In this document: positions 21,508 through 62,106 of the stretch, one piece after another
Layout: each line of letters starts with the position of its first letter
Position numbering within the stretch: position 1 is the first letter of the stretch
Source: Raillietiella orientalis
Lineage: Eukaryota
Length of the DNA stretch: 64,000 nucleotides
Direction of reading: 5' to 3'
Assembly (NCBI GenBank): GCA_036172245.1
Contig: JAYWIR010000070.1
Span: 372,001-436,000, forward strand
Notes under the pieces: model-generated
Seen by the model: only the letters and a program-made list of their open reading frames with translations
Told to the model about the DNA's origin: nothing
Databases searched by the model: none
Made by a program: the position numbers and the translations under genes

Positions 21508-23350
21508 TTCACCCGGATTTCGCCGGGGCGTTTATTGAAACAATAAACTTTAACAAAGACGTGCAGTGGCTGGACCACTGCTCCAGCCAAGCACGAAGAA
21601 ACACAGAGCCTTCCGGGTCACCGGTTCGCAGACCGGTACGGTCCACCACGGCAGCAGGGGGAAGGGGGAAAAAACAAAAAACAAAACAAAAAAGAAAAGA
21701 AAAGTTGGGAGGGTAAGGAAAGGGATCACAGTTGCTGGTGGGGCCTTTGCATCCTTTGCAGGATGCCGGCAAGCTCCTTCTGTATTCCTGAATCCAGGTG
21801 GGGCCATCGGGACGCCCTCCTTAGGAACTGGGAGGCTGGCTGGATGGCACCCTGGTCGCGTTGTCCTCCCGTAGCCTTGCTCCAGGCGCTGACGATCCCG
21901 CGTAGGCAGCACAAAGCTGCTAACGAGGCCGCAGGCCGAAGGGCGTCGGCAACGAAGAGGGCTTTCAGAGCGTCCCTGGGGTTGCCGCAGGGGATTCCGA
22001 TGGCCGCGGCAAAGCGGAACCAAAGGGGTCGAAGGGCAACACAATCCACTAGCAGGTGGGGGAGGGACTCCATTCCCCACACCTGACACAATTGGGGTTC
22101 ACCGCTTCCCAGGTCCAGTGGTGTCGGAGGGAGTTGCAGGGGAGTCCCGAGTGCTGCAACAGGAGAGCCAACTCCTGCCATTTTAAAGGGAGGGTGGAGG
22201 TGTTCATAAGTAACGGGGCCACTTCAGACGTTCAATGGGAACGTCGAGCAGCACGACCCAGTGCACCACAACTCTGGAACAAGTGCCGACATTCGGAACT
22301 GGAGATGAAGCTCCAGCCGTTCCAATGTCAGGAGGCCGAGACCACCGTCCCGACGCAGAGCGCACAAGTCCTTTAAGTGGACTCGGGCCCTCCCGTTGCC
22401 CCAAAAAACGATACGAAGGGGGTCCTTCGTCCGCTTTTTTATCCTCTCTGTAGGGGGTCAAACAAAAGGCAGAGGTCGGAGGAGAGGAGCCGCGAACGTG
22501 TTCCAAACCGCGGCCCGTTCAAGCAGGAAAAACTTGCCGCCTCGGAACGGGCCGATCGCCGTCTCTACTTCCTGGAGGCAGCCGGACCATGCTTCCGCAG
22601 GGGAGTAGTCCCCCGACGGCACACCAAGGTACTTGAAGTACCTCACCGTGAGGATCCCCAAACGGACCCAGTCCTGCTGCCTGCCCACGCCGCACCAATT
22701 GGTATGACGGACGACTTCGCCCTGTTCACCGTAAGTACGGTTCCCCGATGCAGCAGGTCGAAGAACTCCTCGACCGTTGAAGCCGGGGTGGACATAGGGA
22801 GCAGCAGCAGAAGGTCGTCCGCGTACGCTGAAACGGCAGGCGTACCGGCACAGTCGTGCGGCAGGTGCGCAGAGTTTCCCTGTACGCTCTCAGTACGAAC
22901 TCAAAGTAGGTACTGAAGAGCAAGGGGCTCAGGCTCTCCCTGCCGTATCCCACGCCGCACCGGCACGCCGCGCACGGTCTGCCCGCTGAAAGAAACGTTG
23001 ATGAGCGCGTCGCGCCAGCAGGAGCGCAGATAGGCCACTAATGAGGCCGGAAAGCCTAAGCGTTCCAGAAGGAGATTCTGGTCGACGCAATCGAATGCTT
23101 TGCGCAAGTCGAGTGCGACCGCAAGGGCTCCCTCCCCCACTCGACCATCTGAACCTTTGCCGGCGCACGCAACGGAATTCCGGCTGCGCACTAAGCTCCT
23201 TTCATGTTGGAGCTCTAGCCAGGTGTAAGCGTGGAACAGGTTCGCCTCCATGCTTCGCCCGGGAACAGCATATGTCTGTTGCGGGCTGATGAAGATGTTT
23301 GCAACCCGTCCCAGACGCTCTGCCTAAGCCTTAGCCAGCAACATGGCGTG
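21508..23350 (-). mobile_element. Element B: lineage II, intact 3' end plus internally deleted ORF2 (RT and C-terminus)
   Basis: LDLRKAFD, YADD, KYLGVP and ESLPHLLVDC motifs. Colinear with E but roughly 0.5 kb shorter. AATAAA-hairpin terminus at 21508-21536. Confidence 0.9.
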
Positions 23351-23351
23351 C

Positions 23352-25502
23352 GGACGTGTTTTTTCCGCGATCCTCTGCGCCTGTTGTAAAGCGTTCCTTT
23401 TCGTTAGTGTTTGTGTGTGGAGCATCTGCGGTGTCCAATGGCAGAAATGCCTGAGGACACCGCAATGGAAGTCGGCAAGGGAGAGGATTGTTCCTCTTTC
23501 CAGCCCATAGAGATGAGGCAACCGCCCCCACGGAGACGAGGCAACCGCCTTCTTGAAAAAAGGGGCAACCGCATTCTTGGATCCTTCCTAGGCAATGACG
23601 AATACCTGGAGCGCCGTGACTACAGCACCATCCCCTGAAGCCATTGCCTAACAGTGTGCCTACCGGGATCAAGGGTATAAACCATCCTTGATTTATAAGG
23701 TAGGCAACCTTTTTTTGGAGAACACCGCTCGTAACCTTGAAAGAGAGTTACAGCGGCTGAATGTCGAAGAGGAAGGCCTGGAAGGTCTCTCCGTGATGAG
23801 TGGGGGCCAGCGGGTGAAGCTGACTTGCAAAGATGCAAGTCTGGCTCAGCGCCTGTTGAACACTTCCATCACGCTGGAAGGCCGAAAGGTCTTCCCTGTA
23901 ACGGAGGATCGCTCTATTGTTGCACACCTAACCTGTGTAACTCTTCTCATGACCAAAGCTGGCGTGCAGGAAGAGTTGAAAAACCATAACACGGTGCACG
24001 CGCTCTGGACCAAGCCGAACGTCTTCCAAACATACGGAAGACTGTTCAGTGGCATGGCTGCAGCTCGTGTGACCGTCCACGAAAACGGTGGGCTGCCCCA
24101 CAAACTCGACGTCGGCAACGAGGTCGTCGACGTCTGGTACGTGGGCAAGCCCAAGTACTGTGGGCAGTGTGATGCAACAGGACACCTGAAAAAACGGTGT
24201 TCTCACATCCAGTGTTTCCACTGCAAGGAGAAGGGCCACCTACGGAAAGTGTGCCCAAAGCGGAAACCTCCAGCGCCCTCTGCCTTGAAAAAAGGTAAGG
24301 GGAAACGCTTGGAGAAAACAAGCAAGCCCAAAGAAGCAAAGGAAAGGCCAAGCAAAAAGCCAGAGTCCGAATGCTCCCAGCAAACGGCGGGCGAGAAAAA
24401 TCCCGACGACGCTGGTTACAGCGAGGACTGGCGGACAGCGAAGCCGAAAAGCAAAAAAATCCGAAAAACCGAAGAACCGACAGCGGAACCCGTGACAACT
24501 CCTTTAAATAGAAGGCAACGCCACGCTTTGCTCCGCGAATGTTCGGTCGCTTTGTAGCGAGTAGAGATCCCCGAGACCTCCACCGGGGGAGATATCCCCC
24601 GCCTCGTTGACGCCGAAGCCGCGATCGCGGAAGGAGAACCCTCTGTGCAAACAGAGGGGGAGCCGAGCGACGCGGTCGCCGCAATCGAGGACGCCGCCTT
24701 CCAACAGGCGGCGGAAGAGCTCGCGGCCGAGCTCGCGGAAAGTGAGAACGGCGCGCGAAAAGCCTTGCCAAGCTCGGCCGCGGCCAGGGCACCTCCAACA
24801 GGTGACCACGAACCGGATGCCGGAAGTGCGTCCTCCTCCGCGGAGGCGCCTCCGAAGAAGACTGGACGGAAGTCCAAGAATCCAAAGATGTGCATCCCAA
24901 GAAAGAAGGAGGGGGACGCACCGGCAGCCGAAGGGGAAGCCGGTAGCGTAGGAACGGAGGGAGGGATTTTCCCACCCTGCGCTACCGAGCAGCTGGCGAC
25001 CCCCATGGAGGAGGGGGAGAAGGTAAGTCATTGCCGCCCACTTCCAAAGGTGGAACCTGCTGAGGAGATAGCCATGGAGGAGGGGGAGCAGACAGTTGAC
25101 AACCGCTCCCCCCTGCCGTCCAACGCAGCCGACGATTCGGCCCCCATGGAAGAGAGGGAGCAGGTGCGTGAAACTCGCCCCCTTCCACCGTTGCGGTCCA
25201 CTGAGCAATCGGCGCCCATGGAGGAGGGAGAACCGGTGCGCGGTGCCCCCATTCCTCCATCTGTCCCGCCCGACCAGGTGGCGGGCGCCCCATTGTCACT
25301 TTCGCAGGAATAACACCAGGGTTCGCCTGTCGCCGCCGATTACGCGTGGCCTGCTGGAACGTAAACGTGCTGCGCGACGACGGCAACAGACGGGACACGG
25401 CCGCCACCCTGCGTGACTTCGACCTGGCGCTCCTGCAGGAGATCCACGTGATCACCGCGCAGAACGCCCAGGAGATCGAGACGATCGCAGGGGGTCAACT
25501 GT
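23352..25502 (+). mobile_element. Element C: lineage I-related, intact 5' end, disrupted ORF1 (23438-25313) and start of APE
   Basis: Starts GGACGTG. Knuckles CGQCDATGHLKKRC and CFHCKEKGHLRKVC, PMEEGE repeats, then WNVN..QEIH. Interrupted at GGQL by D1. Confidence 0.92.
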
Positions 25503-27588
25503 TTATCACCCGGGTGCGCCGGAGCGTTTATTGTAAACTATCGGGGGACAGGGTTCATGGACAAAGGAGAAAACAAGAGACGAAGGGGGTGGGATCCCCG
25601 ACACGCAGGTCGGTATGCCGAAAGTCCGTAACGGGAGGGAAGGGACCACAAATACACTACTATAAAAAAATTAAATAAAAATATGGAAGGCAGGGGACAG
25701 GGGTCTTTATCGAGTCCGTTCCTTCCTTTCAAAACCGGCGATGGATGCCGGCGATCTCTCTCCTAACGCCCTGTGGAAGATGGCCCACTCGGCAGCCGAC
25801 GACATGATTGTGCTGGCTAATCCGGTGAATGACGAAGGATGGCCAGCTTCTCCAACCCTCGGTGGGCCTTGTCGATGGCGCGGGTGCAACACACGGTTGC
25901 AACGACAGCACCCAAGACAGGCCGCCTGGCGAGAAGAAGCGGCGCATGAAGTCCCTCGCGGTGTCCCCCTGGTGCAGGAGAGCTCATGCCAGCCCCCGTC
26001 AAAGTCCAAGAAGGGCACCGCAGTCTAGGAGCAGGTCAGCGAGCGTTTCCACTTTCTCGCACCGCTTACAGTTTGGGGAGACAACTCCCCCGGAAACACG
26101 GTTCGTCCGCTGGTTGGAGTGAAAACCCCAATGCACCAGCATGAAGACGTCCTGCTTTCACGAAAGGGGGTACACAGAAGCGTACAAACAGGAGGGAGGG
26201 ACCACAAGTTCTTCGGGGGGCACACTTAAGTGTTCACTCCACCGAAGGGGTCCCTTCGGAACGTGGCGAGGCGTGGCGGCGTCTGCCAGCTCGCAAGTCC
26301 TCTAGCCGCCAATAGGTCGTGTTGTTCCTGCAATGGTGCAGGCGACCTCCCATCTCGCCGGTTCGCAGCTGTCATCTCTTGCCCTGAGGGCTGACAGTAC
26401 GTCGGCGAGCAGCGTGACGGCCAGGCGGGTCCACTTCTCCTGGCTGTTGCACACTTCATCCACCGTGCAGTACGGGGAGAGTTGAGCGCAACGGAGTTCC
26501 AGGAGGGAGACATCCTGGTACTTTGCCCAGCCATGCAACGGTTCCTGCCGCCAGGCTTGAAAGTTCGTTGGGCGGCAGGAGATCCATTCCTAGGCTTCCA
26601 GGAGCCGGTAGAGCGGTTTCAAGGAAAAACCAAAGCTTCTCGTGGCGCGCTCCGCGTGCGGCCGCAGCTACAGAAGTCCATCGCTGCCTGTGCAGCGCCG
26701 CAGAAGCAGGCGCGCGGGTGCGCACCACGGGGTGGAACAAAGGTTGGCGCACAGGGCCAACATCCGAAGCTGCACCTGCAGCTCGATTCTCTCCAGCGTC
26801 AGGATGCCTAAGCCAGCATCCCGACGCGGAGCCGCCAAGTCTTTGAGGCAGATCCTGGACCTCGCAGGTCCCCACAGAGCGTTCCTCAACAGGCTGTGCG
26901 CCTGGAGCTTAGCCGATTAGAGGGTCGGGCAAACAAGAAGCAGGAGGCGCAACAGGGGGGCAACGAAGGTGTTCCATATCGTGGCCCGCACCGGCAGGAC
27001 GAACCTGCCATGGTGGAACGGGCTCAGGGAATTCGGAGCCTTCCGAAGGCAATCCGACCACACTTCCACTGGGCTGATGATCCCCAGCGGAACGCCCAGA
27101 TATTGGGTGGTCGAAGCGTTTGGGATCCCCAGGCGGATCCAGTCAGACTGCCCCTCCCACGCCGCAACAATAGGTACGCCCACGCTCTTGCTCCGGTTTA
27201 AACTCAAGCCCGCTCCCCGGCGAATCAGCTCGAAGAAATCCTCAAGAATGATTGCCGGGGTGGTGATATGTAAGAGCAAAAGGAGGTCGTCAGCATAGGC
27301 TGCCACGAACTGCGTTCCTGGACAAGAGCTCGGCAGGGTGGCCAGCGTCAGCCTGTTCGCTATCAGCACCAACTCAAAGAAGATGCTGAAAAGCAACGGG
27401 CTTAAGCTGTCGCCCTGCCTAATGCCCCGCCGCACCGGCACGCCGTACACGTGGCAGCCGCTCAAAGAGATGGAGATGAGCGCGTAAAGCCAGCAAGCGC
27501 GCAAATACGCCACGAGGTGCACCAAGAGACCAAGACGTTCCAGGAGCTCCAGGAGGAGATCCTGATTTACGCAGTCCAGCGCCTTGCG
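25503..27588 (-). mobile_element. Element D1: lineage III, 3' end and RT/C-terminal half of ORF2 (frameshifted)
   Basis: Closely similar to D2 60015-62106 including the 3'UTR; RQGDSLSP and YADD motifs. Confidence 0.93.
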
Positions 27589-27606
27589 TGCTCCAGGGTA
27601 GACGTG
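27571..27606 (+). promoter_or_regulatory. Putative Inr (GCAGTC, in target DNA) plus DPE (AGACGTG, in element H)
   Basis: A at 27573 and motif at 27600 give +1/+28 spacing. Confidence 0.55.
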
Positions 27607-28786
27607 TTTTCTCGGTGCTCCTCGTGCCAGGAAGTCTCCCCCAGTGCAAGCGTCGTGTGGTTCGGTGGTCAATCAGGCAGCGATGCCTGACGCGACCACC
27701 AGGGATGGCAAGGGGGCAGCGGCAACTCCGCCCCCAGAGGCGATGGAGAGCCAGGGGACGGCGGCAACGTCGCCCCTGGAGGCGATGGAGGTGGGGGCAT
27801 GCGCCCCCACAAAATCGGTCCCCGCTGCAGCGCGGGCGTGGAGCGCCCTTGTGTCGGCGCCATCGCCTGCAGCCGCGACGGAATTGTCGGCCTATGTAGA
27901 GGAGGGGTACAACCCCTCATTGTTCTACAAGGTAGGCAATCTCTATTCTTCAGAGAGCGCGCGCGCCTTTTCGAAGGGCATGCGCGCTGTTGATGTGAAA
28001 GAGGAGGAGCTCAGCGCTATGACCATCTGCAGCGGGGGTCAGTACGTTGAGGTCATCTGCAAGCATGCAGAGCTGGCCCAACGACTGCTCAAAACCCCTG
28101 TTGTGATGGGAACGCGCAGGCTCCTCCCCACTACGGCGGACCGCAGCATGGTGGTCCACCTGTTAGGTGTTACCGCGCGGAAGCGCAAGGAACAGGTTCG
28201 CGCCGCGTTGGAGGAATACGGAACGGTCCACGCGCAGTGGAAGAAAGTTAGTCCTTTCGAGGACTACACGGGGCTGCAACACGGCCTCACTGCTGCGCGC
28301 GTGAACGTTCGGGAGGGCTGCACTCTTCCCCACAAACTGGTGGTGGAAGGCGAAACCGTCGACCTCTGGTATGTGGGGAAGCCGAAATACTGTGGCTTCT
28401 GCAATACGTCGGGCCACCTCAAAAAGAGGTGTCCCAATGTGCAGTGCCAAGTATGCGGCACAATGGGCCACACGAGGGAGGTGTGCCCAAAAGCAGCAGT
28501 GCGGGTGGTTTCCAAGAGAAACCTTAAAAAACGCGCCCGGCTTCTGCAGAAAAGGCTGGCGGCGAAAGCTGCCGCGAAGGCTGTGCCACCCGCGCCCAAG
28601 GCCCAGGCCGCACCCGAGACCTCGGCGAACAACGCCGAACAAGTCGAGAAAACAAGCCAGGAGCCTGGGTGGCAGGTGGCTACGGCCAAAAAATCAAAGA
28701 AGGAGAGGAGGATGGAGAAAAAGCTCGCGTACCGCCAGAAAAAACAGCAGGCAAGCGAGCAAATTAAAGAATGCAGCGTTGTCGTT
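27589..28786 (+). mobile_element. Element H part 1: lineage II, intact 5' end and ORF1 N-terminal part (ATG 27683)
   Basis: AGACGTG at 27600. ORF1 is homologous to F ORF1 with two CCHC knuckles and is cut at ECSVVV by J. Confidence 0.92.
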
Positions 28787-34323: not shown

Positions 34324-34534
34324 GTGCACCGTCGTCGTCGAGCGTATTCCCGACGCTGCGAAAAAGAACTCGCCGCTACCGACGACAATCCCTCTGTTGA
34401 CTCTGTCAACAGCGAGGAGAGCGAGCCGGCGGCGGCGTCCGTCATCGACACCACCATCGATGACGTAGCCTTCGCGCGAGCCTCGGAGGAGCTGGCAGCC
34501 TCGTTGCAGCCAGCCCCCTCCGCGGCCAGTAGGA
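34324..34534 (+). mobile_element. Element H part 2: continuation of lineage II ORF1 after J
   Basis: Resumes CTVVVERIP..AAASVIDTTIDDVAFARASEELAASLQP, homologous to F ORF1 51180-51390. Confidence 0.88.
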
Positions 34535-34620
34535 GGACGTGTTTTTCCTTCACTCCCCAAAGAGTAGTAGGAAAGCGCTTTTTCTTCTGTGTGGTGTTTT
34601 GTGTACATCGTCGGTGTCCA

Positions 34621-39300: not shown

Positions 39301-39967
39301 GAAGCCGAGGTGGCAAGTCACCTGCCAGATCGCAGGCAGGGAGAAGATGTTAAGCAGCTGGACCACAGGAGAACTGGCGGACGCCACGACCCCGAGCGTC
39401 CAGCCGCGTGGATTAATGAGATGGGGCGAGCTGCTCGCCATCCCTACGGATGTGCTGAAGTGGCCCCCGGTACTAAAGGAATCCAGGATCCTGCCCCTTA
39501 AGTGGCAAGAGTCGGCGTTGCTATTGCTGCACTGGGGTTTACCCTGCAACGCACGCCGCTTCCACTGGACAAGGGGAGCTGTGGACCCTGAGTGTGTCAG
39601 GTGCGGAGAGCGGGAATCGCTCTCCCACCTTATTGTGGACTGTGCTGCCATCCGACCCCTCTGGGAACGGTTCGGGGCGACCCTAGGGCTCCCTACGAGC
39701 AGCACCCCCAGAGACGTTCTTCGGCCCCTCTTCGTGAAGGACGCACTGCAGCCAGCCGCAGCCATCGCAGCCTTGTGCTGTGTCCGTGGCATCGTGGCTG
39801 CATGGAGCGACGCCAATAACGAAGGAGTGGGTCCACACGCGAGGGATGTCATCCCATACGCCCAACGCTTCATGCGGAGAGCTGCCGGATGGCCCCAACT
39901 GGGGAATATACGGACGGACCTCGAGGGCTTCCTTCAACGGATGGGCCCTCCTCACAGCGCTCAGTGA
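36371..39967 (+). pseudogene. a1 ORF2: APE endonuclease - reverse transcriptase - CCHC, ~1199 codons in one frame with two premature stops (37172, 37301)
   Basis: WNVNGL, QEIH, YAP, GDFN, IDH, SDH; KAPGEDG, WRPIT, DLHKAFD, RQGDSLSP, YADD, KYLG, GGLGL; CVRCGERESLSHLIVDC. Confidence 0.93.
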
Positions 39968-40148
39968 TCCCTTCCCTGCCCTCCAACTTCTTTTTGTCTG
40001 TTTATTTTTTTTATTTTTCTTTTTGTTTTATCCCCATCCCCCTTCGCTGCTGAGGAACGCTACGCTGGGCTGCGTCCCGGTGTCCCGGCAGGTCCAGTGC
40101 ATATGGCTGTGAGCGGGGCCTAGTACCGCGGATGTAGAGTTTTTTAAA

Positions 40149-40179: not shown

Positions 40180-40197
40180 CCTCCACGGCCAACTGGA

Positions 40198-42830: not shown

Positions 42831-42831
42831 A

Positions 42832-50000: not shown

Positions 50001-50034
50001 TAAAAAGGTCCCAGTCCTGGAGATTCCGGAGCGT
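47013..50034 (-). mobile_element. Element a3: lineage I, 3' end and ORF2 downstream of APE (disrupted)
   Basis: Near-identical to a1 37157-40179 in reverse orientation. Confidence 0.94.
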
Positions 50035-50046
50035 CGAGCGGACGTG
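50011..50046 (+). promoter_or_regulatory. Putative Inr (CCAGTC, in target DNA) plus DPE (GGACGTG, in element F) core promoter
   Basis: A at 50013 and motif at 50040 give +1/+28 spacing, matching the Drosophila Inr TCAKTY / DPE RGWCGTG geometry. Function inferred. Confidence 0.6.
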
Positions 50047-52647: not shown

Positions 52648-55600
52648 TGTCCACCTGGGTACTCCCGTGGCGTTTATTGTATAAAACTCTACAAGAAAAC
52701 GTGGTACAAGGCCCCACTAACGGCCACACAACACCGGACCTGCCGGGACGCCGGGACGCAGCCCAGCGTGACGCTCTTCGCCAGTGGAGGGGGATGGGGA
52801 TCAAAACAAAATTAAAAAATGAAAATAAAGGAAAACAAAAAGAGTTTGGAGGGAGGGGAAAGAATCACGTTCCACTTAGAGGAGGGTCCAACCCTCGCAG
52901 GATGCCCTCCAGGTCCATCTTCATGCTTCCCAGATGGGGCCATCTCGCTGCTCTCCGCATGAAGCAGACCGCATACGGGATGACATCCCTCACGTTGGCA
53001 TCCACTTCTTCGTCGCGAATGTCGCTCCATGCCGCCACGATGCCCCGGATATAGCAGAGGGCTGGGAGGGCTGCGGCAGGCTGCAGGGCGTCACGCACGA
53101 AGAGGGGCCGAAGAACGTCTCTGGGCGCTCTGCTTGTTGGGAGCCCGAAGGTCGTCCCGAACCGTTCCCACAGGGGACGGAGGGCAGCACAGTCAACTAG
53201 TAGGTGGGGAAGCGATTTGTGCTCTCCACACCTTGCACACTCAGGCCTTACACTCCCCCGCATCCAGTGGAAGCGGCGCGCGTTGCAGGGTAGACCCCAG
53301 TGCAACAGTAGCAGCCCCGACTCTTGCCACTTCAGGGGGAGAAGCCTGGATCCTATCAGATTGGGGGCCACTTGAGGTCATCCGTCGGGATGCCGAGCAG
53401 CTCGCCCCATCGACGAAGTCCACGAGGAAGGGTACTCGGGGTCGTGGCATCCGCCAGTTCTCCCATGGTCCAACCGCTCATCTTCTTCTCCTTGCCTGCA
53501 ATTCGGCAGGAGACTTGCCACTTTGGCTTGCGGCTGCTTGTTAAAGCCCTTCGGAGAAAGGGCAGGGTCGAAGCTAGAGGGGTGATCTCCGCCCACGTGC
53601 TCCTGGCGGGACACTCCAGAGTAGTCCGCAGTGTGCAGCGGGCGTTGGGGCCGAATCGCAGGCGGTTCCAGTCCGGGGAAGTCTGGAGGTTCAACTTGGC
53701 CCACGTCGCAACTGATTCCTCCAGCCAGGCGAAGAAGTTGGCGGGGCCGCATACCGTCCAGCCGTTGTTTCTGACCAGGGCTTCCATGCGCCCAAGAAAA
53801 GGCCACATCTTCTCACCTTCCTGCCGGAGCACAGGAGGTACGACGCGAGTCCTTGCGTCCTGGACACACGGCTGGCGAGGATTCGGGCCGGAATGCACCA
53901 AGGGGTGCTCCATGACTTTGCTGCGATGGCGAGGGTGCGCCATCGCAGCTGTATTTCCAGGCGCTTTAGCGTCAGGAGGCCGAGACCGCCGTCCCGACGA
54001 GGAGCGCATAAATCATCCAGAGGCACACGTGGCCTCCCGCTGCCCCAGAGGGCGATGCGGAGTATGTCTTTTGTCCTCTTTTTAATGTCACGGTGGACGG
54101 GGCACACAAAAAGCAGGGAACGGAGGATGGAAGCCGCGAAGGCGTTCCACACCGCGGCCCGTTCCGGCAGAAGGAACTTGCATTCCAGGAACGGGCCGAT
54201 TGCCAACTCTACCTTCTCGAGACGACCTGACCAGGCTTCTGCGAGGCAGAAGTCCCCCAACGGGACACCCAGGTACTTCAGGTACCTGGCCGTTGGGATC
54301 CCCAAGCGGATCCAGTCAGGCCGTCCGACCCACGTCGCACCCACCGGTACGACCGACGACTTCGCCTTGTTTACCCGCAGTCCAGTCCCACGACTTAGCA
54401 GATCGAAGAAATCCTCGACTGCGGCTTCCGAGGCGGACATGGGCAGCATGAGCAGAAGATCGACGGCGTATGCTGCAACGGCAAGCGTGCCGGGGCACGA
54501 GCTGGGCAGGGCAGCCAAAGTCACCCTGTACGCTCTCAGCACCAACTCAAAGTAGGTGCTGAAGAGCAGGGGACTGAGGCTATCGCCCTGCCGTATGCCC
54601 CGCCGCACCTGCACGCCGAACACCTGTTGGCTGGAAAAGACGATGTTGACAATGGCATTGCGCCAGCATGAGCGCAGGTAGGAGAGAACGGAGCTTGGGA
54701 AGCCCATGCGACCCTGGAGCTCCAACAGTAGCTCCAGGTCTACGCAGTCGAACGCCTTGTGGAGATCGACCGCGATCGCTAGGGCTCCCTTCCCAGCCCG
54801 GGTATCTATTCCCAGCCCACCTGGCGGTTCCAAAGTGGGGTTGCCAATCTTTCCCCCTGTGTCGTTCAGGCAGCGCTGCACATGGAACCATGTGCTCTCG
54901 AAGAACAGGTTGGCATCCATACTTCGCCCGGGAACAGCGTACGTCTGCTCCGGGCTAATTATGGAGTCTGCCACCTGTCCTAGACGCAAAGCCCACAGTC
55001 CAGCGATCAGCTTGGCGTCCGTATTCACGATTGTGATCGGACGCCAATTGCCCAAGAATCTCAGGTCTCCTCCCTTCGGGAGGAGCCTCACACGGGCTGA
55101 CCGAAACGAGGCGGGAACGTCGCCTTCGTCTCGGATCAGCCCGGTCAACTGAAGCACCAGGGGTGCCAGCTCTGCCGCGAAACATTGAAAGAATTCCGCA
55201 GGCAGGCCGTCTTACCCTGGCGCCTTTCGCCTCTTGAGCCTTTTAAAACCGGCGAGAATTTCACCGGTAGAAAAAGGCTCGTCGAGGCTGATCTTCTCCT
55301 CTTCCCCTATTGCCGGGGCTCCATCCGAAAGCAGGAGCCGCGAGGCGTTCCGCTCTGGGGGTGCCCTAGCGTAGAAAGAGGAGTAATAACGTCGCACGAG
55401 GTGCCTGATCGCGGGTGGTGCGGATCGCTCCCGGCCCTGGTCGTCCAGCAAGCTGGCCGACCCGGATTGCCAGGCTTGGCGTTCGGCCCCGGCTCGATAT
55501 TCCGCGAGGCGACGGACATTCGGGGTCCTCTCGTACCGGCGGGCCTGTAGATAAGCCCGATGGTTCCGAGCCCCCTCCCCGAATCCGGGGGGCAGGCGGT

Positions 55601-56282
55601 GCAGGGGAAACTCCTCGCAGAACTCGCGGAACGAGGCCTTGAAGAGGTCCCAGTCTTGGAGACTGCGGAGGGTGACACCTCTTAGGATTTCGCGAAGGTG
55701 TTCTTTCGCACCTGTGAGCTGCGTCCAGTCCCCAGGCAGCCGCCACGCCCTGGACGGGGGTCCTTTGTCGCGCGGGCAAACCTCGGCGATGATCCTGGAA
55801 TGGTTCGACAGCGTCGACGCAACTTTTCCCCGTTTGCAAACCCGCGAGCACAGGTCGACATCCAGGAAGAAGTGGTCGATGCTGCGGTCCATTCCCTCCG
55901 CGTCTGCCAACAAGTTGCGCGTGCGCATGGCAGCGCAAAACTCGTTGGCCGTGCGTTCTTGTGCTTCGGGCTCACCTGACAGCAGACGGAGATTGAAGTC
56001 TCCAGCTATCAGGTGTGCCTTCCGCACATTCGTGTCGGCCAGCCAATCGCGCTTCAAGGTTTCCAGCAGCCTGGTACGGTCGCTGTATCCCCCTTTTCCG
56101 CTCGGGGCGTACACGTTCGTGACGATCAATTCGATCGAGTCGGACCAGCTGAGAATCAGCTGACCGACCCTACCGTCGTTATCGAAGCGTACGCCCTTCA
56201 CGGCAGCGTCGATGGCCGGCTTGACGAAGAACGCGACCCAGCAGGTGTTGCGGGCGCCGCATCGCCAATACAGTCGACCCCC
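52648..56282 (-). mobile_element. Element G, 3' part: lineage I subfamily, ORF2 from GGRLYW to the 3' end
   Basis: Homologous to a1 ORF2 and 3'UTR; frameshifted. Confidence 0.93.
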
Positions 56283-56372
56283 TCCATTGTTCGGACGTGC
56301 ATTCTTGCGCTCCGTCTTTGGTGCTTCTTTGCGGTTGTTCCTTTTGGGTGCGGTGGGATTTTTCATTTGGAA

Positions 56373-58310
56373 ATGAAGCCAGTGCCCGCAGAAATGGAGG
56401 TGGAGGAATCCCCCTGCGCCGCAGGACCTTCTTCGGGAGGAGCGGAAGCCTCCACCGATCGTCCCTCGCCTCCAGCGAGAAGTTTTGCCGCCGTTGCTAA
56501 GGCAGCGGCGGCTCACGGAGCCCCACCCGACGAGGCAGAGCTGCGGGCGTACGCCGCGAGCGGCTACAACCCCCCTCTGGCCTACAAGGTCAGTGCCGCG
56601 TACCGGGATGGGACGGGCAACCAGCTCTGGAGCGAGCTAGAACGCGTAGGGGTCCGAGAGGACGATCTCCTGGCAATTATGCCAGTGAGCGCGGTAGGCC
56701 ATTGGGAGGTGCACTGCAAGGATGCAGCCCTCGTCCAGCGCCTACTGCGAACCCCCCTGAACATCAGGGGTAAGGAGGTCGTCCCCTCGGCCCTGGATCA
56801 ATCGTTCGTGGTCCAGCTCTCGGGAATTAGGCCGAGAATAACGGACCGCGACATCATTGTTGCACTCGAGGCGTTCGCCACAGTGCACGCGATGTGGAGG
56901 CGCGCGAACCCGATCGATAAAGTCCCGCGCCTCTCCTGCGGACTTGCGACGGCGCGCGTCACCATGGACGACCGGAGGCTCATGCCTTCGCAGATCCTCC
57001 TCGGTGACGTCGTCGTCTATCTCCGGTTTGCCGGGCAAACCCCCGCTTGCGGCAACTGCGGGAAGGAGGGCCACCGTCCGCGGAAGTGCCCAACACGCAG
57101 TTGCCGATACTGTAAGCTGCTCGGCCACTCGATTAACGAGTGCGCCGAGCTGAAACGAAAGAGGAGGGCGAGAAACCCCCCCGCAACATCGCCGTCCGCG
57201 CCGACTCCATCCGCCCCGTCGTCGGGGAAGAAATCAGGCGCGAACGAGCATTCTCAGCGGAGAAGTGAAAAGTCCGCTTGCGCGGGCGATTCTTGGAGCA
57301 ATGCTCCACAAAAACCCGCGCGAAAGGACAAGGAGCTCCTCCAGGCTGCTTCAGTAAAGCCCCGAGCGACCCAGCCCGCCGATAACATCGGGCAGGCTGC
57401 AAAAATAGCACCGCCGCTTCCGTCCGCTCTCGCTCCGGAGCGAAATAGCGGTGGCACGCCCGGGAAGACCACCGGAGCGTCGAAAAAGGGGTCGCGCGCC
57501 CCTTTGCCCGCGACAGGCAAGCCGGCCACGGCGGGCCGAACGCCAGCAAAGGCTGAAAAGCCTCGCGCGACACCCGAGAATCCCGCCACTGTGCCCGCAC
57601 CTCCCGGTAAGGAGGTGCAGAAGGCAGACGTGGCGAAGGAGACACTGGCCTCAGTCGCCGTATCCGAGGCCTTGGAAAGGATGCGAAGGACCCTGGAAGC
57701 CCTCGCGCCCAACCGGGGCAAACAGGAAGGCGGCGAGGATGGCTGGACCTTCGTCGGGGGAAAGAAGGAGCGCAAACCGCGCGATCCTTCCCACTTCCCG
57801 ATCCAAAAGGTAGGCGGGGTGAAGAGGCAACCCCGCGCGCCCAGAAAGGCGCAAGGACAAGCCTCTGCTGCCGCCGCGCGCGCCGCCGCAAACACCCGCG
57901 GCGAGAGGGGAGCTGCCGAAGCCGTGACCCCGAAAGGGGGATCGGCGACGAAGGCACCCTCGAAGAGTGCTGGACCAGCTCCGGGCTGCCAGCAAACAAA
58001 GAGGCAGGCGAAACGCCCGCCGCCGCGCGCGCGCAATTCGGACTCCGAGGTGGAGTCCGAGGGCAGCGCTAAGGCTCGCCAAGCCCCGGTCAAGGCCAGG
58101 GCTGCGCGCAAGCCAAAACTTGCCAGGCAAGAGCCTGATGCCGGGAACGGTTCCCGATGCTCCTCGGAGCCCGAGGCAATGGTCCTCGACTCGACCAAGC
58201 CGGCCGCGAGCGGCGCGGCGGGGACAGGAAGCGCTTGCGCTACCTCATCCGCCGTGCTCCCGGCTGATGCCTCGCCGGACGGGGCGAGGAACGCACCTCC
58301 ATGTCCGTAG
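56373..58310 (+). CDS. D2 ORF1 (645 aa) gag-like protein
   Basis: Open from ATG 56373; knuckles CGNCGKEGHRPRKC and CRYCKLLGHSINEC; long basic low-complexity tail. Confidence 0.9.
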   Translation: MKPVPAEMEVEESPCAAGPSSGGAEASTDRPSPPARSFAAVAKAAAAHGAPPDEAELRAYAASGYNPPLAYKVSAAYRDGTGNQLWSELERVGVREDDLLAIMPVSAVGHWEVHCKDAALVQRLLRTPLNIRGKEVVPSALDQSFVVQLSGIRPRITDRDIIVALEAFATVHAMWRRANPIDKVPRLSCGLATARVTMDDRRLMPSQILLGDVVVYLRFAGQTPACGNCGKEGHRPRKCPTRSCRYCKLLGHSINECAELKRKRRARNPPATSPSAPTPSAPSSGKKSGANEHSQRRSEKSACAGDSWSNAPQKPARKDKELLQAASVKPRATQPADNIGQAAKIAPPLPSALAPERNSGGTPGKTTGASKKGSRAPLPATGKPATAGRTPAKAEKPRATPENPATVPAPPGKEVQKADVAKETLASVAVSEALERMRRTLEALAPNRGKQEGGEDGWTFVGGKKERKPRDPSHFPIQKVGGVKRQPRAPRKAQGQASAAAARAAANTRGERGAAEAVTPKGGSATKAPSKSAGPAPGCQQTKRQAKRPPPRARNSDSEVESEGSAKARQAPVKARAARKPKLARQEPDAGNGSRCSSEPEAMVLDSTKPAASGAAGTGSACATSSAVLPADASPDGARNAPPCP

Positions 58311-58315
58311 CAGCA

Positions 58316-61300
58316 ATGCGCGGTCTCGCTTCTTCCCGTCGCGTCCGAGTGGCCTGTTGGAACGTCAACGGGCTGCAGGACAACGAGAAGAGGCGATTGG
58401 TTGCCAACGTCTTGCGCGACTTCGATCTGGCCCTGCTGCAGGAGATTCACGCACTCTCCGAGCAGCAAGCGGCCGATCTGCAAGTTCGCGCAGGCGGGAC
58501 GCTCCATTGGAGGTCAGGCTCCCAGAATACCTGCGGAGTCGCATTCCTTGTCCGGGGCAGGGTGGCGGGAGCGGTGCGGAGCGTTTGTTTCGACGAGGAA
58601 GGTCGTGTGGGCCAACTTGTTCTCAAGTGGTCCGAATCGATCAACCTTGTCGTCACGAACGTGTACGCGCCGAGCGGCTCCGCGCGTCACACCGAGAAAC
58701 TGGAGTTTTTCGAGAGACTGCGCGACCGCTGGCTCAGCAACTCCGGCCCCGACGTGGCTCACCTCGTAGCCGGGGACTTCAACGTCCACGCGCTATCGGA
58801 GGAGTCTCACCGTCGCCGGGAGAAACGGCTGGTGAACGAGGTGTGCGCGTCGGTGCACGCCTCGAATTTGCTGGCCGACGATCCCGGAATGCGTGCTTTG
58901 CCGGACCATGTGTTCCTCGACGATCACCTGCATTGCCGGGTGGGTCGAAGAGGTCCCGTGCCGTCCGAGCTTTCCGACCACTACAGGCTGGAGTTTGAGC
59001 TACTCCCGTCTGGCAAGGGCCCACCGACGAACGTCTGGAGGTTGCCGGCCGACTGGTTGAGAAATCCGGTGGCTGCGGAGCACCTCCGCCAGCATCTTCG
59101 GACCTTTGCCGTTCGAGAGCTCGTGGACTGGGACGATCTGAAAAGATCGGTCCGCGAGTTCTGCAGCCGGTTCCCCTTGCGCCTGCTTCACCGTGGCTTC
59201 GAAGAAGGCGTGGCCAACAGCAGAGAGTTTCTGCAGGCCCGCCAATTCTTCCGATGCCCGGACGTCCGGTACCTTGCGGAGTACAAGGCCAAGGCCGAGC
59301 GCCAGGTCTAGCAGTCAGGAGTAGCTTGTCTGCTCGACGACCAGGGCCTGGAGTGCTCGGGCGCGGCCGAAGTTCGCCGCCTCCTAAAGCGCTATTACTC
59401 CTTGTTGTACGCTAGGAAGCCGACGGAACGCAGTCTCTCGGAGCTGCTTCTGCCGGCGGATTCCCCGGCGGTCGACGAGGAGGAACGCGCCACTCTTGAC
59501 TTGCCCTTCACGGCGGAAGAAGTGTCTTCCGCCATAGCGGGCCTCAAGAAGCGCAAGGCGCCAGGTGAGGATGGTCTGCCTGCGGAGTTCTTCCAGTGCT
59601 TCGCGGCGGAACTCATCCCTTTGGTACTGAGGCTTTCTGCGCTGATGCGAGAGACGGGCAATGTCCCGGCCTCGTTTCGCTCAGCAAGGGTGCGTCTGTT
59701 GCCGAAAGGCGGAGACATGCGCCATTGAAGCAACTGGCGTCCCATCACCTTGGTGAATGCGGACGTCAAGTTGTTCTCCAGGCTGTGGGTCGCGCGCCTG
59801 GGCAGGATCGCTGGATCCGTGGTAAGTCCGGAGCAGTCTTACGCTGTTCCCGGGCGGTCCATGGAGGCGAACCTGTTCTTCGCGCGCACGTGGCTCGAAC
59901 TGCAACGCTGCGTGGCGCACGACAGCCAGGCAACCGCGTCTGCGGCTGCCGAGGCTAGGCGTAGCTGCATTCGGCCTGGGGAAGCGCCGGGTGCCTTGGC
60001 GGTCGCGGTCGATCTCCGCAAGGCGTTCGATTGCGTAAATCAGGATCTCCTGCTGGAGCTCCTGGAACGCCTCGGTCTCCCGGTGCACCTCGTGGCGTAT
60101 TTGCGCGCTTGCTGGCGCCACGCGCTCATTTCCATCTCTTTTAGCGGCTGCCACGTGTACGGCGTGCCGGTGCGGCGGGACATCAGGCAGGGCGACAGCT
60201 TAAGCCCGTTGCTCTTCAGCATCTTCTTTGAGTTGGTGCTGAGGGCGTACAGGCTGACGCTGGCCAACCTGCCGAGCTCTTGTCCAGGAACGCCGTCCGT
60301 GGCGGCCTATGCTGACGACCTGCTCCTCCTCTTACCCATGACCACCCCGGCATCCAGTCTCGAGGAGTTCTTCGAGCTGATTCGCCGGGGAGCGGGCATG
60401 AGCGTAAACCGGAGCAAGAGCGTGGTCGTACCTATTGGTGCGGCGTGGGAGGGGCAGTCCGACTGGATCCGCCTGGGGATCCCGACCGCTTCCTCCGTGC
60501 AATATCTGGGCGCTTCGCTGGGGAACATCAGCCCAATGGAAGTGTGGTCGGACTGCCTTCGGAAGGCTTCGAATGCCCTGAGCCCGTTCCACCATGGCAG
60601 GTTCGTCCTGCCGGAGCGGGCCACGATATGGAACACATTCGTTGCCCCTCTCTTGCGCCCCCAGCTTTTTGTTTGCCCGCCCCCCTACTCGGCCAAGCTC
60701 CAGGCGCACAGCCTGTTAAGGAACGCTCTTTGGGGACCTGCGAGGTCCAGGATCCGCCTCAAAGACTTGGCGGCTCCGCGTCGGGATGCTGGCTTAGGCA
60801 TCCTGACGCTGGAGAGAATCGAGCTGCAGGTGCAGCTTCGGATGTTGGCCCTGTGCGCCAACCTTTGGTCCACTCCGTGGTGCGCTCCCGCGCGCCTGCT
60901 TCTGCGGCGCTGCACAGGCAGCGATGGACTTCTGTCGCTGCGGCCGCACACGGAGCGCGCCACGAGAAGCTTCGGTTCCCCCTTGAAACCGCTGTATCGG
61001 CTCCTGGAAGCCCAGGGATGGATCTCCTGCCGCCCAACGAACTTTCAAGCCTGGCGGCAGGAACCGTTGCATGGCTGGGCAAAGCACCAGGATGTTTCCC
61101 TCCTGGAACTCCGTTGCGCTCACCTCTCCCCGTATTGCACGGTGGATGAGGTGTGCAACAGCCAGGAGAAGTGGACCCGCCTGGCCGTCACCCCCCTCGA
61201 AGACGCACTGTCAGCCCTCAGGGCAAGAGATGACAGTTGCGAACCGGCGAGATGGGAGGTCGCCTGCACCATCGCAGGAACAACGCGACCTATTGGCGGC

Positions 61301-61878
61301 TGGAAGACTTGCGAGCTGGCGGACGCCGCCACGCCTCGCCACGTTCCGAAGGGACTCCTTCGGTGGAGCGAACACTTAAGTGTGCCCCCCGAAGAACTTG
61401 TGGTCCCTCCCTCTTGTCTGAACACTTCTGTGTTCCCCCTTTCGTGGAAGCAGGATGTGATTATGCTGGTGCATTGGGGTTTTCACTCCAACCAGCGCAC
61501 GAACCTTGTTTCCGGGGGAGTCGTCTCCCCAAACTGTAAGCGGTGCGGGGAAGTGGAAACGCTCTCGCACCTGCTCCTGGACTGTGGTGCCCTTCTAGGA
61601 CTCTGGCGGAGGCTGGCCTCAGCTCTCCTGCACCAGGGGGACACCGCGAGGGAGTTGATGCGCCGCTTCTTCACGCCAGGCGGCCTGTCATTGGGTGCTG
61701 TCGTTGCAACCGTGTGTTGCACCCGCGCCATCGCAAGGCCCACCGAGAGTTGGAGAAGCTGGCCATCCTTCGTCAGCCCACCGGATTAGCCAGCGCAAAC
61801 ATGTCGTCGGCTGCCCAGTGGGCCCATCTGCCACAGGGCGTAAGGAGAGAGATCGCCGGCATCCATCGCCGGTTTTGA
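58316..61878 (+). pseudogene. D2 ORF2: APE-RT-CCHC with stops at 59311 and 59728 and a late frameshift
   Basis: WNVNGL, QEIH, GDFN, SDH, DLRKAFD, YADD, CKRCGEVETLSHLLLDC. Confidence 0.92.
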
Positions 61879-62106
61879 AAGGAAGGAACGGATTTACCAA
61901 AGACCCCTGTCCCCTGCCCTCCAGATTTTTCTTTTATTTTTTTATATAGTAGTGTGTTTGTGGTCCCTTCCCTCCCGTTCCGGACTTTCGGCATACCGAC
62001 CTGCGTGTCGGGGATCCCACCCCCTTCGTCTCTTGTTTTCCCCTTTGTCCGGGAACCCTGTTCCCGGATAGTTTATAATAAACGCCCCGGCGCACCCGGG
62101 TGACAA

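What the first reader, a model, noticed from the sequence alone, without database searches (positions are those of the whole stretch)
21508..62106. No self-lineage insertions, cyclic targeting and antisense bias
Seen: II->III (B, H), I->II (C, a1, a2, a3, G), III->I (D1, D2), III->II (J), II->I (E, F). None of the 12 classifiable insertions is into its own lineage. Ten of 13 are antisense to the host; the three sense ones are all the a-subfamily. Every insertion breaks a host ORF, several at conserved motifs. Inference: rock-paper-scissors antagonism among selfish elements, aimed at sites the victim cannot easily mutate. The alternating strands could also make the locus a source of antisense small RNA.
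Basis: partly seen in the sequence, partly recalled or inferred. Interest (0 to 1): 0.72.

Follow-up and report, generated by a model that had tools for sequence, protein, structure and literature searches.

The report
LINE retrotransposons nested inside one another
Three related jumping genes (LINE retrotransposons) have repeatedly inserted into one another, never into their own kind, at the same few nucleotide positions, which has built a Russian-doll stack of broken copies and suggests they use each other as landing sites.

Summary
None of the 12 is into its own lineage, and 9 of 12 are antisense. The three sense ones are the alpha copies X1, X2 and X3.

The 12 events use only 7 sites, and four sites recur to the nucleotide in independent hosts, always in the same orientation. 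These are therefore target-site-specific LINEs whose targets lie in the coding sequence of sibling LINEs. The array is an 11-deep nest in which each element sits in the one before it, and the right-hand halves should lie beyond base 64000.

"Cyclic" targeting is not supported, because 5 of the 6 cross-lineage directions occur. The antisense excess is not significant once events at the same site are pooled (6 of 7 sites, one-sided p=0.06). Breaking an ORF is expected anyway, because about 94% of an element is coding. The small-RNA idea could not be tested.

The closest known cases are Tx1-clade LINEs that target other transposons and the self-nesting Zepp clusters. I found no description of reciprocal targeting between sibling LINEs. 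All evidence comes from this one locus.

The parts
20874..21507 (+). A: gamma-lineage RT fragment. It is the outermost element, 5'-truncated against an unclassified flank, and is cut at site S3 by B.
   Evidence: 90% identical to L3 59388-60032. It ends ...CGCAAGGCGTTAGATT directly before the B 3' end.
21508..23351 (-). B: 3' part of a beta-lineage element. Its 3' terminus abuts A at S3, and it is cut at S5 by the 5' end of C. It carries an internal deletion of about 520 nt relative to Y.
   Evidence: 78-82% identical to Y. Groups with Y in the RT tree at 100/99. Terminus shown.
23352..25502 (+). C: 5' part of an alpha-like element, running from its full 5' end GGACGTG through ORF1 to the start of ORF2. 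It is cut at S1 by D.
   Evidence: In the ORF1 tree it is sister to W+X1+X2 at 100/99. It ends GGGGGTCAACTGT directly before the D 3' end.
25503..27588 (-). D: 3' part of a gamma-lineage element. Its 3' terminus abuts C at S1, and it is cut at S3 by the 5' end of beta2.
   Evidence: 91.5% identical to L3 60017-62359. Junctions.
27589..28785 (+). beta2, left piece: the 5' end and ORF1 of a beta-lineage element, up to site S7.
   Evidence: Groups with Z in the ORF1 tree at 100/99. 5' GACGTG motif. Open ORF of 405 aa.
28786..34325 (-). E': full-length gamma2 element, about 73% identical to L3, inserted antisense into beta2 at S7 (the ECSVVV codons of ORF1). The 13-nt target-site duplication matches at 11 of 13 positions.
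   Evidence: Both termini and both flanks are visible.
34326..34534 (+). beta2, right piece: ORF1 from S7 to S4, ending in the S4 target copy CCTCCGCGGCCAGTAGGAG.
   Evidence: 76% identical to Z 51181-51369. Alignment.
34535..40179 (+). X1: full-length alpha element (ORF1, then APE, RT and a C-terminal Cys motif), inserted in the sense orientation at S4 of beta2. It carries unoccupied S1 (36548-36560) and S2 (37157-37171) sites. ORF2 has two in-frame stops.
   Evidence: Pfam, ORFs, termini, sites.
40180..40198 (+). 19-nt copy of the S4 target lying between X1 and X2, which marks tandem insertion at one site.
   Evidence: CCTCCACGGCCAACTGGAG matches the left copy at 15 of 19 positions.
40199..42829 (+). 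X2: 5' half of an alpha element, 94.7% identical to X1, cut at S2 by the 3' end of Y.
42830..47012 (-). Y: 3' part of a beta element. Its 3' terminus abuts X2 at S2, and it is cut at S4 by the 3' end of X3. It carries unoccupied S5 and S6 sites.
   Evidence: Groups with B (RT tree, 100/99) and with Z (APE tree, 92/94).
47013..50034 (-). X3: 3' part of an alpha element, 95.0% identical to X1. It is inserted in the sense orientation into Y at S4 and is cut at S2 by the 5' end of Z.
50035..52647 (+). Z: 5' part of a beta element, with a full 5' end, an open 549-aa ORF1 and the start of APE. It carries unoccupied S7 (about 51176-51189) and S4 (51375-51394) sites and is cut at S6 by the 3' end of W.
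52648..56282 (-). W, 3' piece: an alpha-like element, 80% identical to X1, from S1 to its 3' end. It is inserted antisense into Z.
56283..62106 (+). L3: full-length gamma element and the innermost of the nest, inserted antisense into W at S1. It is flanked by an exact 13-nt duplication ACAGTCGACCCCC (56270-56282 and 62107-62119) and carries an unoccupied S3 site at 60017-60032.
   Evidence: One contig of a public run joins 56274 to 62112 without L3.
62107..64000 (-). W, 5' piece: ORF1 up to S1. It runs off the end of the window about 170 nt short of its 5' end.
   Evidence: 78% identical to X1 34686-36560. Alignment.

Best explanation
The array is a nest of target-site-specific L1-like LINEs of three sibling lineages. 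Each lineage's landing sites are short sequences inside the ORFs of the other lineages.

Shown:
- All elements share the same ends. GACGTG is present at all 7 of 7 full-length 5' ends, and AATAAACG plus a CCCGG..CCGGG hairpin with no poly(A) is present at 8 of 8 visible 3' ends.
- They encode ORF1 with CCHC knuckles and an ORF2 with an L1-type AP endonuclease and a reverse transcriptase.
- Twelve insertions use 7 sites. Gamma enters alpha at GGGGGTC(G/A)ACTGT (S1, 2 events). Beta enters alpha at ACGCTCCGGAATCTC (S2, 2 events). Beta enters gamma at CGCAAGGCGTTCGATT, which is RT motif A (S3, 2 events). Alpha enters beta in the sense orientation at CC(T/C)CCAAGGCTGGCAAGAAG in the ORF1 tail (S4, 3 events, two of them a tandem pair sandwiching a target copy). 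There are three single-use sites, S5 to S7.
- Each site has one fixed orientation, and the target-site duplications are 13-19 nt.

Inferred:
- The encoded endonuclease nicks the host strand at these sites and reverse transcription is primed there (target-primed reverse transcription).
- Because each lineage's own sequence differs at the homologous position (7/13 and 8/15 matches at S1 and S2), it does not hit itself.
- Because the elements land almost only in each other, copies pile up as a Russian doll: A<B<C<D<beta2<X2<Y<X3<Z<W<L3, with E' and X1 also sitting in beta2.
- Each insertion breaks its host copy.
- The right-hand halves should lie beyond base 64000 in mirror order.

Whether the benefit is a safe harbour for the host genome or damage to a rival element is not decided by these data. 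I lean towards safe harbour, with mutual damage as a side effect.
For: Domains: RVT_1 at E=4e-22 and 4e-20, Exo_endo_phos at 6e-14 and 2e-17, zf-CCHC at 1e-3. The nearest solved endonucleases are human L1 EN and its variants, E about 4e-7. The Atlas neighbours are L1 ORF2 clusters with zf-RVT.

Lineages: RT, ORF1 and APE trees give 3 clades with 92-100% support.

Exact termini at every junction.

S1 is used in two alpha hosts that are only 70% identical overall (C and W), by gamma copies that are 91.5% identical. This rules out duplication of one composite element.

L3 has a 13/13 target duplication and E' has 11/13.

Y and Z both sit at S2, yet they overlap by 1280 nt at only 76% identity. 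They are therefore two elements, not halves of one element separated by an inversion.

Site re-use: 6 coincident pairs were observed. The probability of even one is 0.0125, and no more than 3 appeared in any of 200,000 simulations.

Element damage tends to fall from the outer to the inner elements: 1.7-4.0 versus 0-2.1 disruptions per kb, Spearman rho=-0.49, p=0.08.

One contig of a public run bridges W across the L3 insertion, showing an empty site.
Against: One locus only. No genome is held, so specificity is not shown genome-wide.

Nine of 12 events show a single junction.

The outermost element A lies in DNA that is not recognisably a LINE, so gamma can land elsewhere.

The two beta sites S2 and S3 share no clear motif, and neither do the alpha sites S4 and S6 beyond GG(A/G)GG at the nick.

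At S3, beta copy B's own sequence differs from the gamma target at only 2 of 16 positions, so avoidance of self is not explained by the duplicated bases alone.

The S3 duplication matches at only 13 of 16 positions, and the S4 copies match at 12-15 of 19.

No endonuclease assay has been done. The 3' hairpin shows no covariation.
Confidence: 0.72

Rival explanations
1. Directed antagonism. The endonuclease specificities were selected because they disable competing lineages at positions the victim cannot change, which drives an arms race with escape substitutions.
For: Every insertion interrupts ORF1 or ORF2 of a sibling lineage. Five of 7 sites lie at or above the 84th percentile of within-lineage nucleotide conservation, mean 77, Wilcoxon p=0.02. 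S3 is on invariant RT motif A. The unoccupied S1 sites of X1 and X2 differ from the two occupied ones by one synonymous Arg-codon change, and the unoccupied S2 of W differs at 3 of 15 positions.
Against: No cycle: 5 of 6 cross directions occur. S2 and S7 are not specially conserved (58th and 33rd percentiles). About 94% of an element is coding, so any insertion breaks an ORF. X1 carries an exact S2 site that is unoccupied, and C carries a one-mismatch S1 site that is occupied, so a mismatch does not track occupancy. Conserved sites are also what a safe-haven strategy would pick. The sample is far too small to detect selection.
Confidence: 0.15
2. An ordinary repeat island with no targeting. 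On this view, random nested insertions were followed by inversions, duplications or gene conversion that copied a few junctions.
For: For S2 and S3 the window shows one 3' junction and one 5' junction each. A single insertion followed by an inversion could produce that. The S2 duplication is 15/15 identical.
Against: Y and Z overlap by 1280 nt at 76% identity, so they cannot be two halves of one insert. An inversion explaining A/B and D/beta2 would need a breakpoint exactly at the 5' terminus of C. The S1 hosts are 70% identical while the inserts are 91.5% identical. No other transposon family is present in 43 kb. The site coincidences are far beyond the simulation.
Confidence: 0.08
3. A host-side transposon trap or small-RNA cluster. 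On this view the locus captures elements and its mixed strands yield silencing RNAs, and the pattern reflects selection on the cluster.
For: Nested fragments lie on alternating strands, and seven elements keep their own full 5' ends, so convergent transcription is possible. This is inference only.
Against: Only one element superfamily is present, and insertions are nucleotide-specific. That points to the elements' own machinery and not to a general trap. No RNA data bear on this.
Confidence: 0.05
4. Assembly artefact. On this view repeats were joined wrongly.
For: X1, X2 and X3 are about 95% identical, and repeat arrays are prone to misassembly.
Against: Every join falls at an exact element terminus next to a recognisable target sequence, with duplications where both sides are visible. 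False joins would fall inside shared sequence.
Confidence: 0.03

Closest known systems
Tx1-clade target-specific LINEs: Tx1L in the Tx1D piggyBac element of Xenopus, Tx1-Mar in Mariner-N4_AMi, and Tx1-8_Crp and Tx1-4_AMi in LTR retrotransposons of crocodilians. Sources: PMC4494074, passages read; PMC6719617, passage read.
   Same: These are LINEs with an AP-type endonuclease that insert at a fixed site and orientation inside another transposon. Tandem copies sandwiching a target duplication are reported for their SINE partners, as seen here for X1/X2. The usual rationale is a harmless multicopy target.
   Different: Here the targets are the coding sequences of sibling autonomous LINEs of the same superfamily, and the targeting is reciprocal (alpha to beta and beta to alpha). 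The 3' end is a hairpin after AATAAA and is neither a poly(A) tail nor a microsatellite tail. Phylogenetic membership of the Tx1 clade was not tested.
Zepp and ZeppL L1-like elements of green algae. Source: PMC8226300, passages read.
   Same: Localised LINE clusters are built by nested insertion into existing LINE copies.
   Different: Zepp is described as targeting its own copies and as giving arrays made mostly of 5'-truncated 3' ends. Here 0 of 12 insertions are into the own lineage, and 7 of 8 visible 5' ends are full length.
R1/R2-type rDNA-specific LINEs. This rests on recalled knowledge. PMC1919474 and PMC5035012 were seen only as search listings.
   Same: Nucleotide-precise, orientation-fixed insertion driven by the element's endonuclease, with a large share of available target copies occupied. 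Here about half are occupied: 2 of 4 at S1, 2 of 4 at S2, 2 of 4 at S3 and 2 of 3 at S4.
   Different: Their target is a host multicopy gene, not another retrotransposon.
Animal piRNA clusters of nested transposon fragments. This rests on recalled knowledge. 10.1101/2023.05.08.539910 was seen only as a search listing.
   Same: A dense nest of broken elements with a strand bias.
   Different: Those clusters hold many unrelated families inserted at arbitrary positions. This array holds one superfamily inserted at fixed positions. Small RNAs were not examined.

Membership tests
Target-site-specific AP-endonuclease LINEs (functional class) | ORF2 with an AP-type endonuclease N-terminal to the reverse transcriptase | tested here: met
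   Pfam Exo_endo_phos and RVT_1 in alpha and gamma copies. Catalytic-type motifs WNVNG, QEI, GDFN and SDH are conserved in 4-5 of 5 aligned copies. L1 EN is the best PDB match.
Target-site-specific AP-endonuclease LINEs (functional class) | Independent copies inserted at the same nucleotide of a repeated target, in one orientation | tested here: met
   S1 is used 2 times, S2 2 times, S3 2 times and S4 3 times, each in one orientation. The coincidences are far beyond the simulation.
Target-site-specific AP-endonuclease LINEs (functional class) | A large share of all genomic copies is flanked by the target (Kojima's criterion is more than 20%, PMC4494074) | not testable with these tools
   No genome is held. 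Within the window, 12 of 13 elements lie in a sibling LINE and 1 (A) does not.
Target-site-specific AP-endonuclease LINEs (functional class) | The endonuclease cleaves the target sequence specifically in vitro | not testable with these tools
   This needs a bench assay.
Tx1 clade (phylogenetic) | The RT groups with Tx1 reference elements in a tree | not tested
   No labelled reference sequences were available. The best named relatives are fish and frog RT proteins at 24-28% identity.
Tx1 / L1 superfamily | C-terminal Cys-rich (zf-RVT-like) motif after the RT | tested here: inconclusive
   PF13966 scores 18.3 and 17.6 bits against a cut-off of 27.5. The Atlas neighbours carry zf-RVT in 55-82% of members.
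L1 clade in the strict sense | 3' poly(A) tail | tested here: not met
   All 8 of 8 visible 3' ends finish with AATAAACG, a hairpin and 3-7 nt, with no poly(A).
Zepp-type self-nesting LINE clusters | New copies insert into copies of the same family | tested here: not met
   0 of 12 insertions are into the own lineage.
Zepp-type self-nesting LINE clusters | Arrays made mostly of 5'-truncated 3' ends | tested here: not met
   Seven of 8 visible 5' ends carry the full GACGTG start. Only A is truncated.
piRNA cluster / transposon trap | Many unrelated transposon families accumulate | tested here: not met
   All of 20874-64000 is accounted for by three sibling LINE lineages.
piRNA cluster / transposon trap | Produces abundant small RNAs | not testable with these tools
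   No RNA data could be laid on the array.

The most novel reading that the evidence does not exclude
A closed guild of LINE lineages that live almost only inside one another. Each lineage's endonuclease has evolved to recognise coding sequence of its siblings and to spare its own. The elements would then form an intragenomic parasite-of-parasite network. Its arrays would grow by leapfrogging, because the newest copy is intact until a sibling hits it. Target codons and endonuclease specificities would co-evolve, and the synonymous S1 variant in the unoccupied X1 and X2 copies would be a first hint of escape.
Probability: 0.3. Interest if true: 0.8.

Novelty: new variant of a known kind. Interest (0 to 1): 0.62.

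Why it matters
Site-specific LINEs are known to target host multicopy genes, microsatellites and some DNA or LTR transposons. If sibling LINEs use each other's coding sequence as their landing pad, reciprocally and with nucleotide precision, this would be a clean natural case of transposon-on-transposon parasitism. It would explain how a compact, single-superfamily repeat island can build itself from one seed insertion. It would provide several related L1-type endonucleases with different, known target sequences of 13-19 bp, which is useful for studying how LINE endonuclease specificity changes. It would also make the competition-versus-safe-haven question testable, by comparing target codons, occupancy and endonuclease sequence across the genome.

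Tried and rejected
- Whole-genome matrix: not possible, because no genome is held for this window.
- Earlier notes of this scan: none for this genome.
- Rfam: no family anywhere in the window. tRNA scan: none. Tandem repeats: only two small ones.
- Public runs: one DNA run, kept as contigs, holds 0.10 of the sampled words. No RNA holder is listed, so expression and small RNAs could not be examined.
- Laying that run placed 610 contigs, 42 of them 99% or more alike. The loose-end table was cut (315 rows not shown), and the rows shown fall on an A-rich low-complexity stretch at 47160-47200. No genome-wide profile of insertion sites could be drawn.
- Most joints merely link homologous positions of different copies. 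One joint (62110 to 46476, with 37 letters between) may be a third gamma 3' junction at an S1-like site in another host, but it rests on a single contig with 33 letters on the short side. I treat it as a lead only.
- Metagenome scan with an RT alignment: 1 locus at 28% identity, which is no use.
- The left flank 18000-20873 was tested as a possible degraded LINE by tblastn, phmmer and an ORF1 profile. Nothing was significant, best E=0.03 on a short piece. A similarity I thought I saw by eye is dropped.
- The 269-aa ORF at 9572-10381 has no Pfam family, no feature match and no longer homologue. A resemblance I recalled to a chromatin-protein gene was not confirmed and is not used. The organism therefore remains unidentified.
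- CpG decay as a clock for nest order: observed/expected CpG is 0.86-1.05 in all sizeable pieces, so it carries no signal.
- Covariation in the 3' hairpin: 0 of 7 predicted pairs show compensatory change.
- A shared recognition motif for the two beta sites or the two gamma sites: none is convincing by eye.
- Inversion models: the simple inversion for S2 is rejected by the Y/Z overlap. The inversion for S3 is rejected as needing a breakpoint exactly at C's terminus.
- Literature: six searches found TE-targeting Tx1 elements and self-nesting Zepp, but no report of reciprocal LINE-to-LINE site-specific targeting. Repbase Reports and most subscription journals are not in the library, so this is not proof of absence.

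Full report
WHAT IS THERE

The window changes character at about 20.9 kb. To the left, GC is 34-52%. From there to the end it is a steady 57-64%. The GC-rich part is full of long open frames on both strands. Pfam finds reverse transcriptase (RVT_1, E=4e-22 and 4e-20), AP-type endonuclease (Exo_endo_phos, E=6e-14 and 2e-17), a CCHC knuckle in ORF1 (E=1e-3) and a sub-threshold zf-RVT match.

The nearest solved endonucleases are human L1 EN and its engineered variants, at E about 4e-7. Atlas neighbours are L1 ORF2 clusters carrying zf-RVT. Sequence relatives are few: one JGI protein is 67% identical, and everything else is 30% or less, including fish, frog and plant RT proteins. The JGI protein is 52-68% identical to copies of all three lineages here, so it represents a further lineage of the same superfamily.

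No genome is held for this window, and I could not identify the organism.

SEGMENTS AND LINEAGES

Self-BLAST and a piece-by-piece identity table divide 20874-64000 into 16 pieces of 13 elements, with nothing left over. ML trees of the RT, ORF1 and APE regions give three clades with 92-100% support:
- alpha: X1, X2, X3, W and the more distant C
- beta: B, Y, Z, beta2
- gamma: A, D, L3 and the more distant E'

Identity between lineages is 66-75%.

TERMINI

- All 8 of 8 visible 3' ends carry an invariant AATAAACG, followed by a CCCGG..CCGGG hairpin and 3-7 further bases, with no poly(A). The hairpin is conserved in sequence but shows no compensatory change (0 of 7 pairs).
- All 7 of 7 full-length 5' ends carry GACGTG(T/C). 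The outermost element A is 5'-truncated.
- The three lineages therefore form one superfamily with common ends.

JUNCTIONS

Every boundary between pieces falls at one of these exact termini. Three elements have both flanks in the window:
- L3 lies in W with an exact 13-nt duplication, ACAGTCGACCCCC.
- E' lies in beta2 with a 13-nt duplication matching at 11 of 13 positions.
- X1 lies between two copies of a 19-nt beta2 sequence matching at 15 of 19. The second copy separates it from X2, making a tandem pair at one site.

The other nine events show one junction each.

THE NEST

Read left to right, each element is interrupted by the terminus of the next:

A(+) | B(-) | C(+) | D(-) | beta2(+) [E'(-)] [X1(+)] X2(+) | Y(-) | X3(-) | Z(+) | W(-) [L3(+)] W(-)

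The simplest reading is a Russian doll 11 deep whose right-hand halves lie beyond base 64000.

I considered the alternative that a single insertion was split by an inversion, since for sites S2 and S3 the window shows one 3' junction and one 5' junction.
- For S2 this fails. Y and Z, the two beta pieces involved, overlap by 1280 nt at only 76% identity, so they are different elements.
- For S3 it would need an inversion breakpoint exactly at C's 5' terminus.

Damage tends to fall from the outer to the inner elements: 1.7-4.0 stops or frame changes per kb in A to D against 0-2.1 further in, with rho=-0.49 and p=0.08. This fits the nest order but is weak. No element in the window is fully intact.

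THE MATRIX

Insert -> host:
- alpha->beta: 5 (C, X1, X2, X3, W)
- beta->alpha: 2 (Y, Z)
- beta->gamma: 2 (B, beta2)
- gamma->alpha: 2 (D, L3)
- gamma->beta: 1 (E')
- alpha->gamma: 0
- self: 0 of 12

Nine of 12 are antisense, and the three sense ones are X1, X2 and X3. I could not find a 13th insertion with a definable host.

With targets weighted by base-pair share, no self-hit in 12 events has p about 0.006. With 7 sites as the units, p is about 0.05. Antisense 9 of 12 gives one-sided p=0.073, and 6 of 7 sites gives p=0.0625.

Since 5 of 6 cross directions occur and alpha and beta hit each other, the pattern is mutual and not cyclic.

SITE RE-USE: THE MAIN RESULT

The 12 events use 7 sites.

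- S1, gamma into alpha, antisense, at GGGGGTC(G/A)ACTGT in the N-terminal part of the endonuclease. It is occupied in W (by L3) and in C (by D). The hosts are 70% identical overall while the inserts are 91.5% identical, so these are independent hits and not a copied composite. X1 and X2 carry GGGGGTCGGCTGT, a synonymous Arg change, and are empty.
- S2, beta into alpha, antisense, at ACGCTCCGGAATCTC between the endonuclease and the RT. It is seen at X2|Y and X3|Z, with the 15 nt identical. X1 has the exact site and is empty. W matches at 12 of 15 and is empty.
- S3, beta into gamma, antisense, at CGCAAGGCGTTCGATT, which is RT motif A (K-A-F-D, invariant). It is seen at A|B and D|beta2, with 13 of 16 positions matching. 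L3 is empty.
- S4, alpha into beta, sense, at CC(T/C)CCAAGGCTGGCAAGAAG in the ORF1 tail. It is seen at beta2|X1, X1|X2 and X3|Y. Z is empty.
- S5, C into B, in the RT N-terminal part.
- S6, W into Z, at GGGATTTGGGG.
- S7, E' into beta2, at the ECSVVV codons.

Each site has one orientation. Roughly half of the available sites are occupied.

In a simulation with random positions and orientations, the chance of even one coincident pair is 0.0125. I observe six pairs, and none of 200,000 runs exceeded three.

At the homologous position, the inserting lineage's own sequence matches the target at only 7 of 13 positions (S1, gamma) and 8 of 15 (S2, beta). At S3, however, beta copy B matches at 14 of 16, so the duplicated bases alone do not explain self-avoidance.

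CONSERVATION AT THE SITES

Within-lineage nucleotide identity in 40-nt windows puts the sites at percentiles 76-94 (S1), 58 (S2), 88 (S3), 82-86 (S4), 99 (S5), 90 (S6) and 33 (S7). The mean is 77 and the one-sided Wilcoxon p is 0.02.

S1 sits beside the most conserved block of the alpha 5' half: 93-98% identity between sublineages that average 63-79%.

The statement that every insertion breaks an ORF is true but uninformative, because about 94% of an element is coding.

OUTSIDE DATA

One public DNA run, kept as contigs, holds a tenth of the sampled words. Laid on 42830-62829, it gave 610 contigs, 42 of them 99% or more alike. The families are therefore multicopy in that organism. One contig joins W across L3, showing an empty S1 site. 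The output was too truncated to draw a site profile. A metagenome scan found nothing close.

MECHANISM

- Shown: the endonuclease and RT domains, the exact termini, the target duplications of 13-19 nt, the fixed sites and the fixed orientations.
- Inferred from what is established for AP-endonuclease LINEs (PMC4494074 introduction): the endonuclease nicks the host strand at the site and primes reverse transcription there. For the antisense sites the nicked strand is the host element's sense strand.
- Inferred: because the elements land mainly in each other, one seed insertion (A) can grow into a single-superfamily island, and each new copy inactivates its host copy.
- I favour safe-haven targeting of a conserved multicopy sequence, with mutual damage as a by-product. 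Directed antagonism remains possible.

COMPARISON WITH WHAT IS KNOWN

- Tx1-clade LINEs target other transposons at fixed sites: Tx1L in Tx1D, Tx1-Mar in a Mariner family, and two crocodilian families in LTR elements. Tandem copies around a duplication are described there (PMC4494074; PMC6719617).
- Zepp and ZeppL build clusters by nesting into their own copies, mostly as 5'-truncated ends (PMC8226300).
- The present case differs in three ways. Its targets are sibling autonomous LINEs' coding sequences. The targeting is reciprocal. The insertions are full-length and never self-directed.
- Six literature searches found no such description. Repbase Reports and many journals are outside the library.

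LIMITS

The evidence comes from one locus. Nine of 12 events rest on one junction. There is no genome, no RNA data and no biochemistry. The clade and the organism are unresolved.

Noticed in passing
window 40135-40179, 47013-47059, 52648-52694, 21508-21552, 42830-42874, 25503-25547, 62062-62106, 28786-28828: All 8 visible 3' ends share an invariant AATAAACG followed by a CCCGG..CCGGG hairpin and a short A-rich tail, with no poly(A). This is unusual for an L1-like element and may be the RT recognition signal. No covariation was seen.
   Followed up: partly
window 23352, 27601, 34323 (-), 34535, 40199, 50040, 56293: Seven of 8 visible 5' ends are full length and start with GACGTG(T/C)TTT, preceded by 2-14 variable bases. 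Such a high share of full-length insertions is atypical for L1-like elements.
   Followed up: partly
window 36400-36547 (X1) and the matching stretches of W and C: A block of about 120 nt just upstream of site S1 is 93-98% identical between alpha sublineages that average 63-79% identity. The conservation is at the nucleotide level, beyond what the protein needs, and lies near the start of ORF2. The block may be a cis-acting element.
   Followed up: partly
window 36548-36560 and 42206-42218: The unoccupied S1 sites of X1 and X2 differ from the two occupied S1 sites by one synonymous change in an Arg codon. This is compatible with escape from gamma, but it rests on only two copies that are themselves close relatives.
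   Followed up: partly
window 22268-22293: Element B lacks about 520 nt that are present in Y (43589-44110). This is an internal deletion and not an insertion site.
   Followed up: no
window 27711-27790: A 42-nt unit is repeated 1.9 times in the N-terminal part of beta2 ORF1.
   Followed up: no
window 20001-20873: The stretch just left of the array has 55% GC and CpG observed/expected of 1.1, unlike the flank further left (0.6-0.8). It has open frames, but no detectable similarity to the LINEs or to anything else I tested.
   Followed up: partly
window 9572-10381 (+): A 269-aa open frame rich in K, S and P lies in the AT-rich flank. It has no Pfam family and no homologue in the searches run. 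It is probably an exon of a host gene.
   Followed up: partly
window 47160-47200: An A-rich low-complexity run in the alpha 3' UTR attracts many unrelated contigs when reads are laid. It inflates depth there and fills the loose-end table.
   Followed up: yes
window 37172-37174 and 37301-37303: X1, otherwise the best-preserved alpha copy, has two in-frame stops in ORF2. The first lies directly after the S2 target.
   Followed up: no
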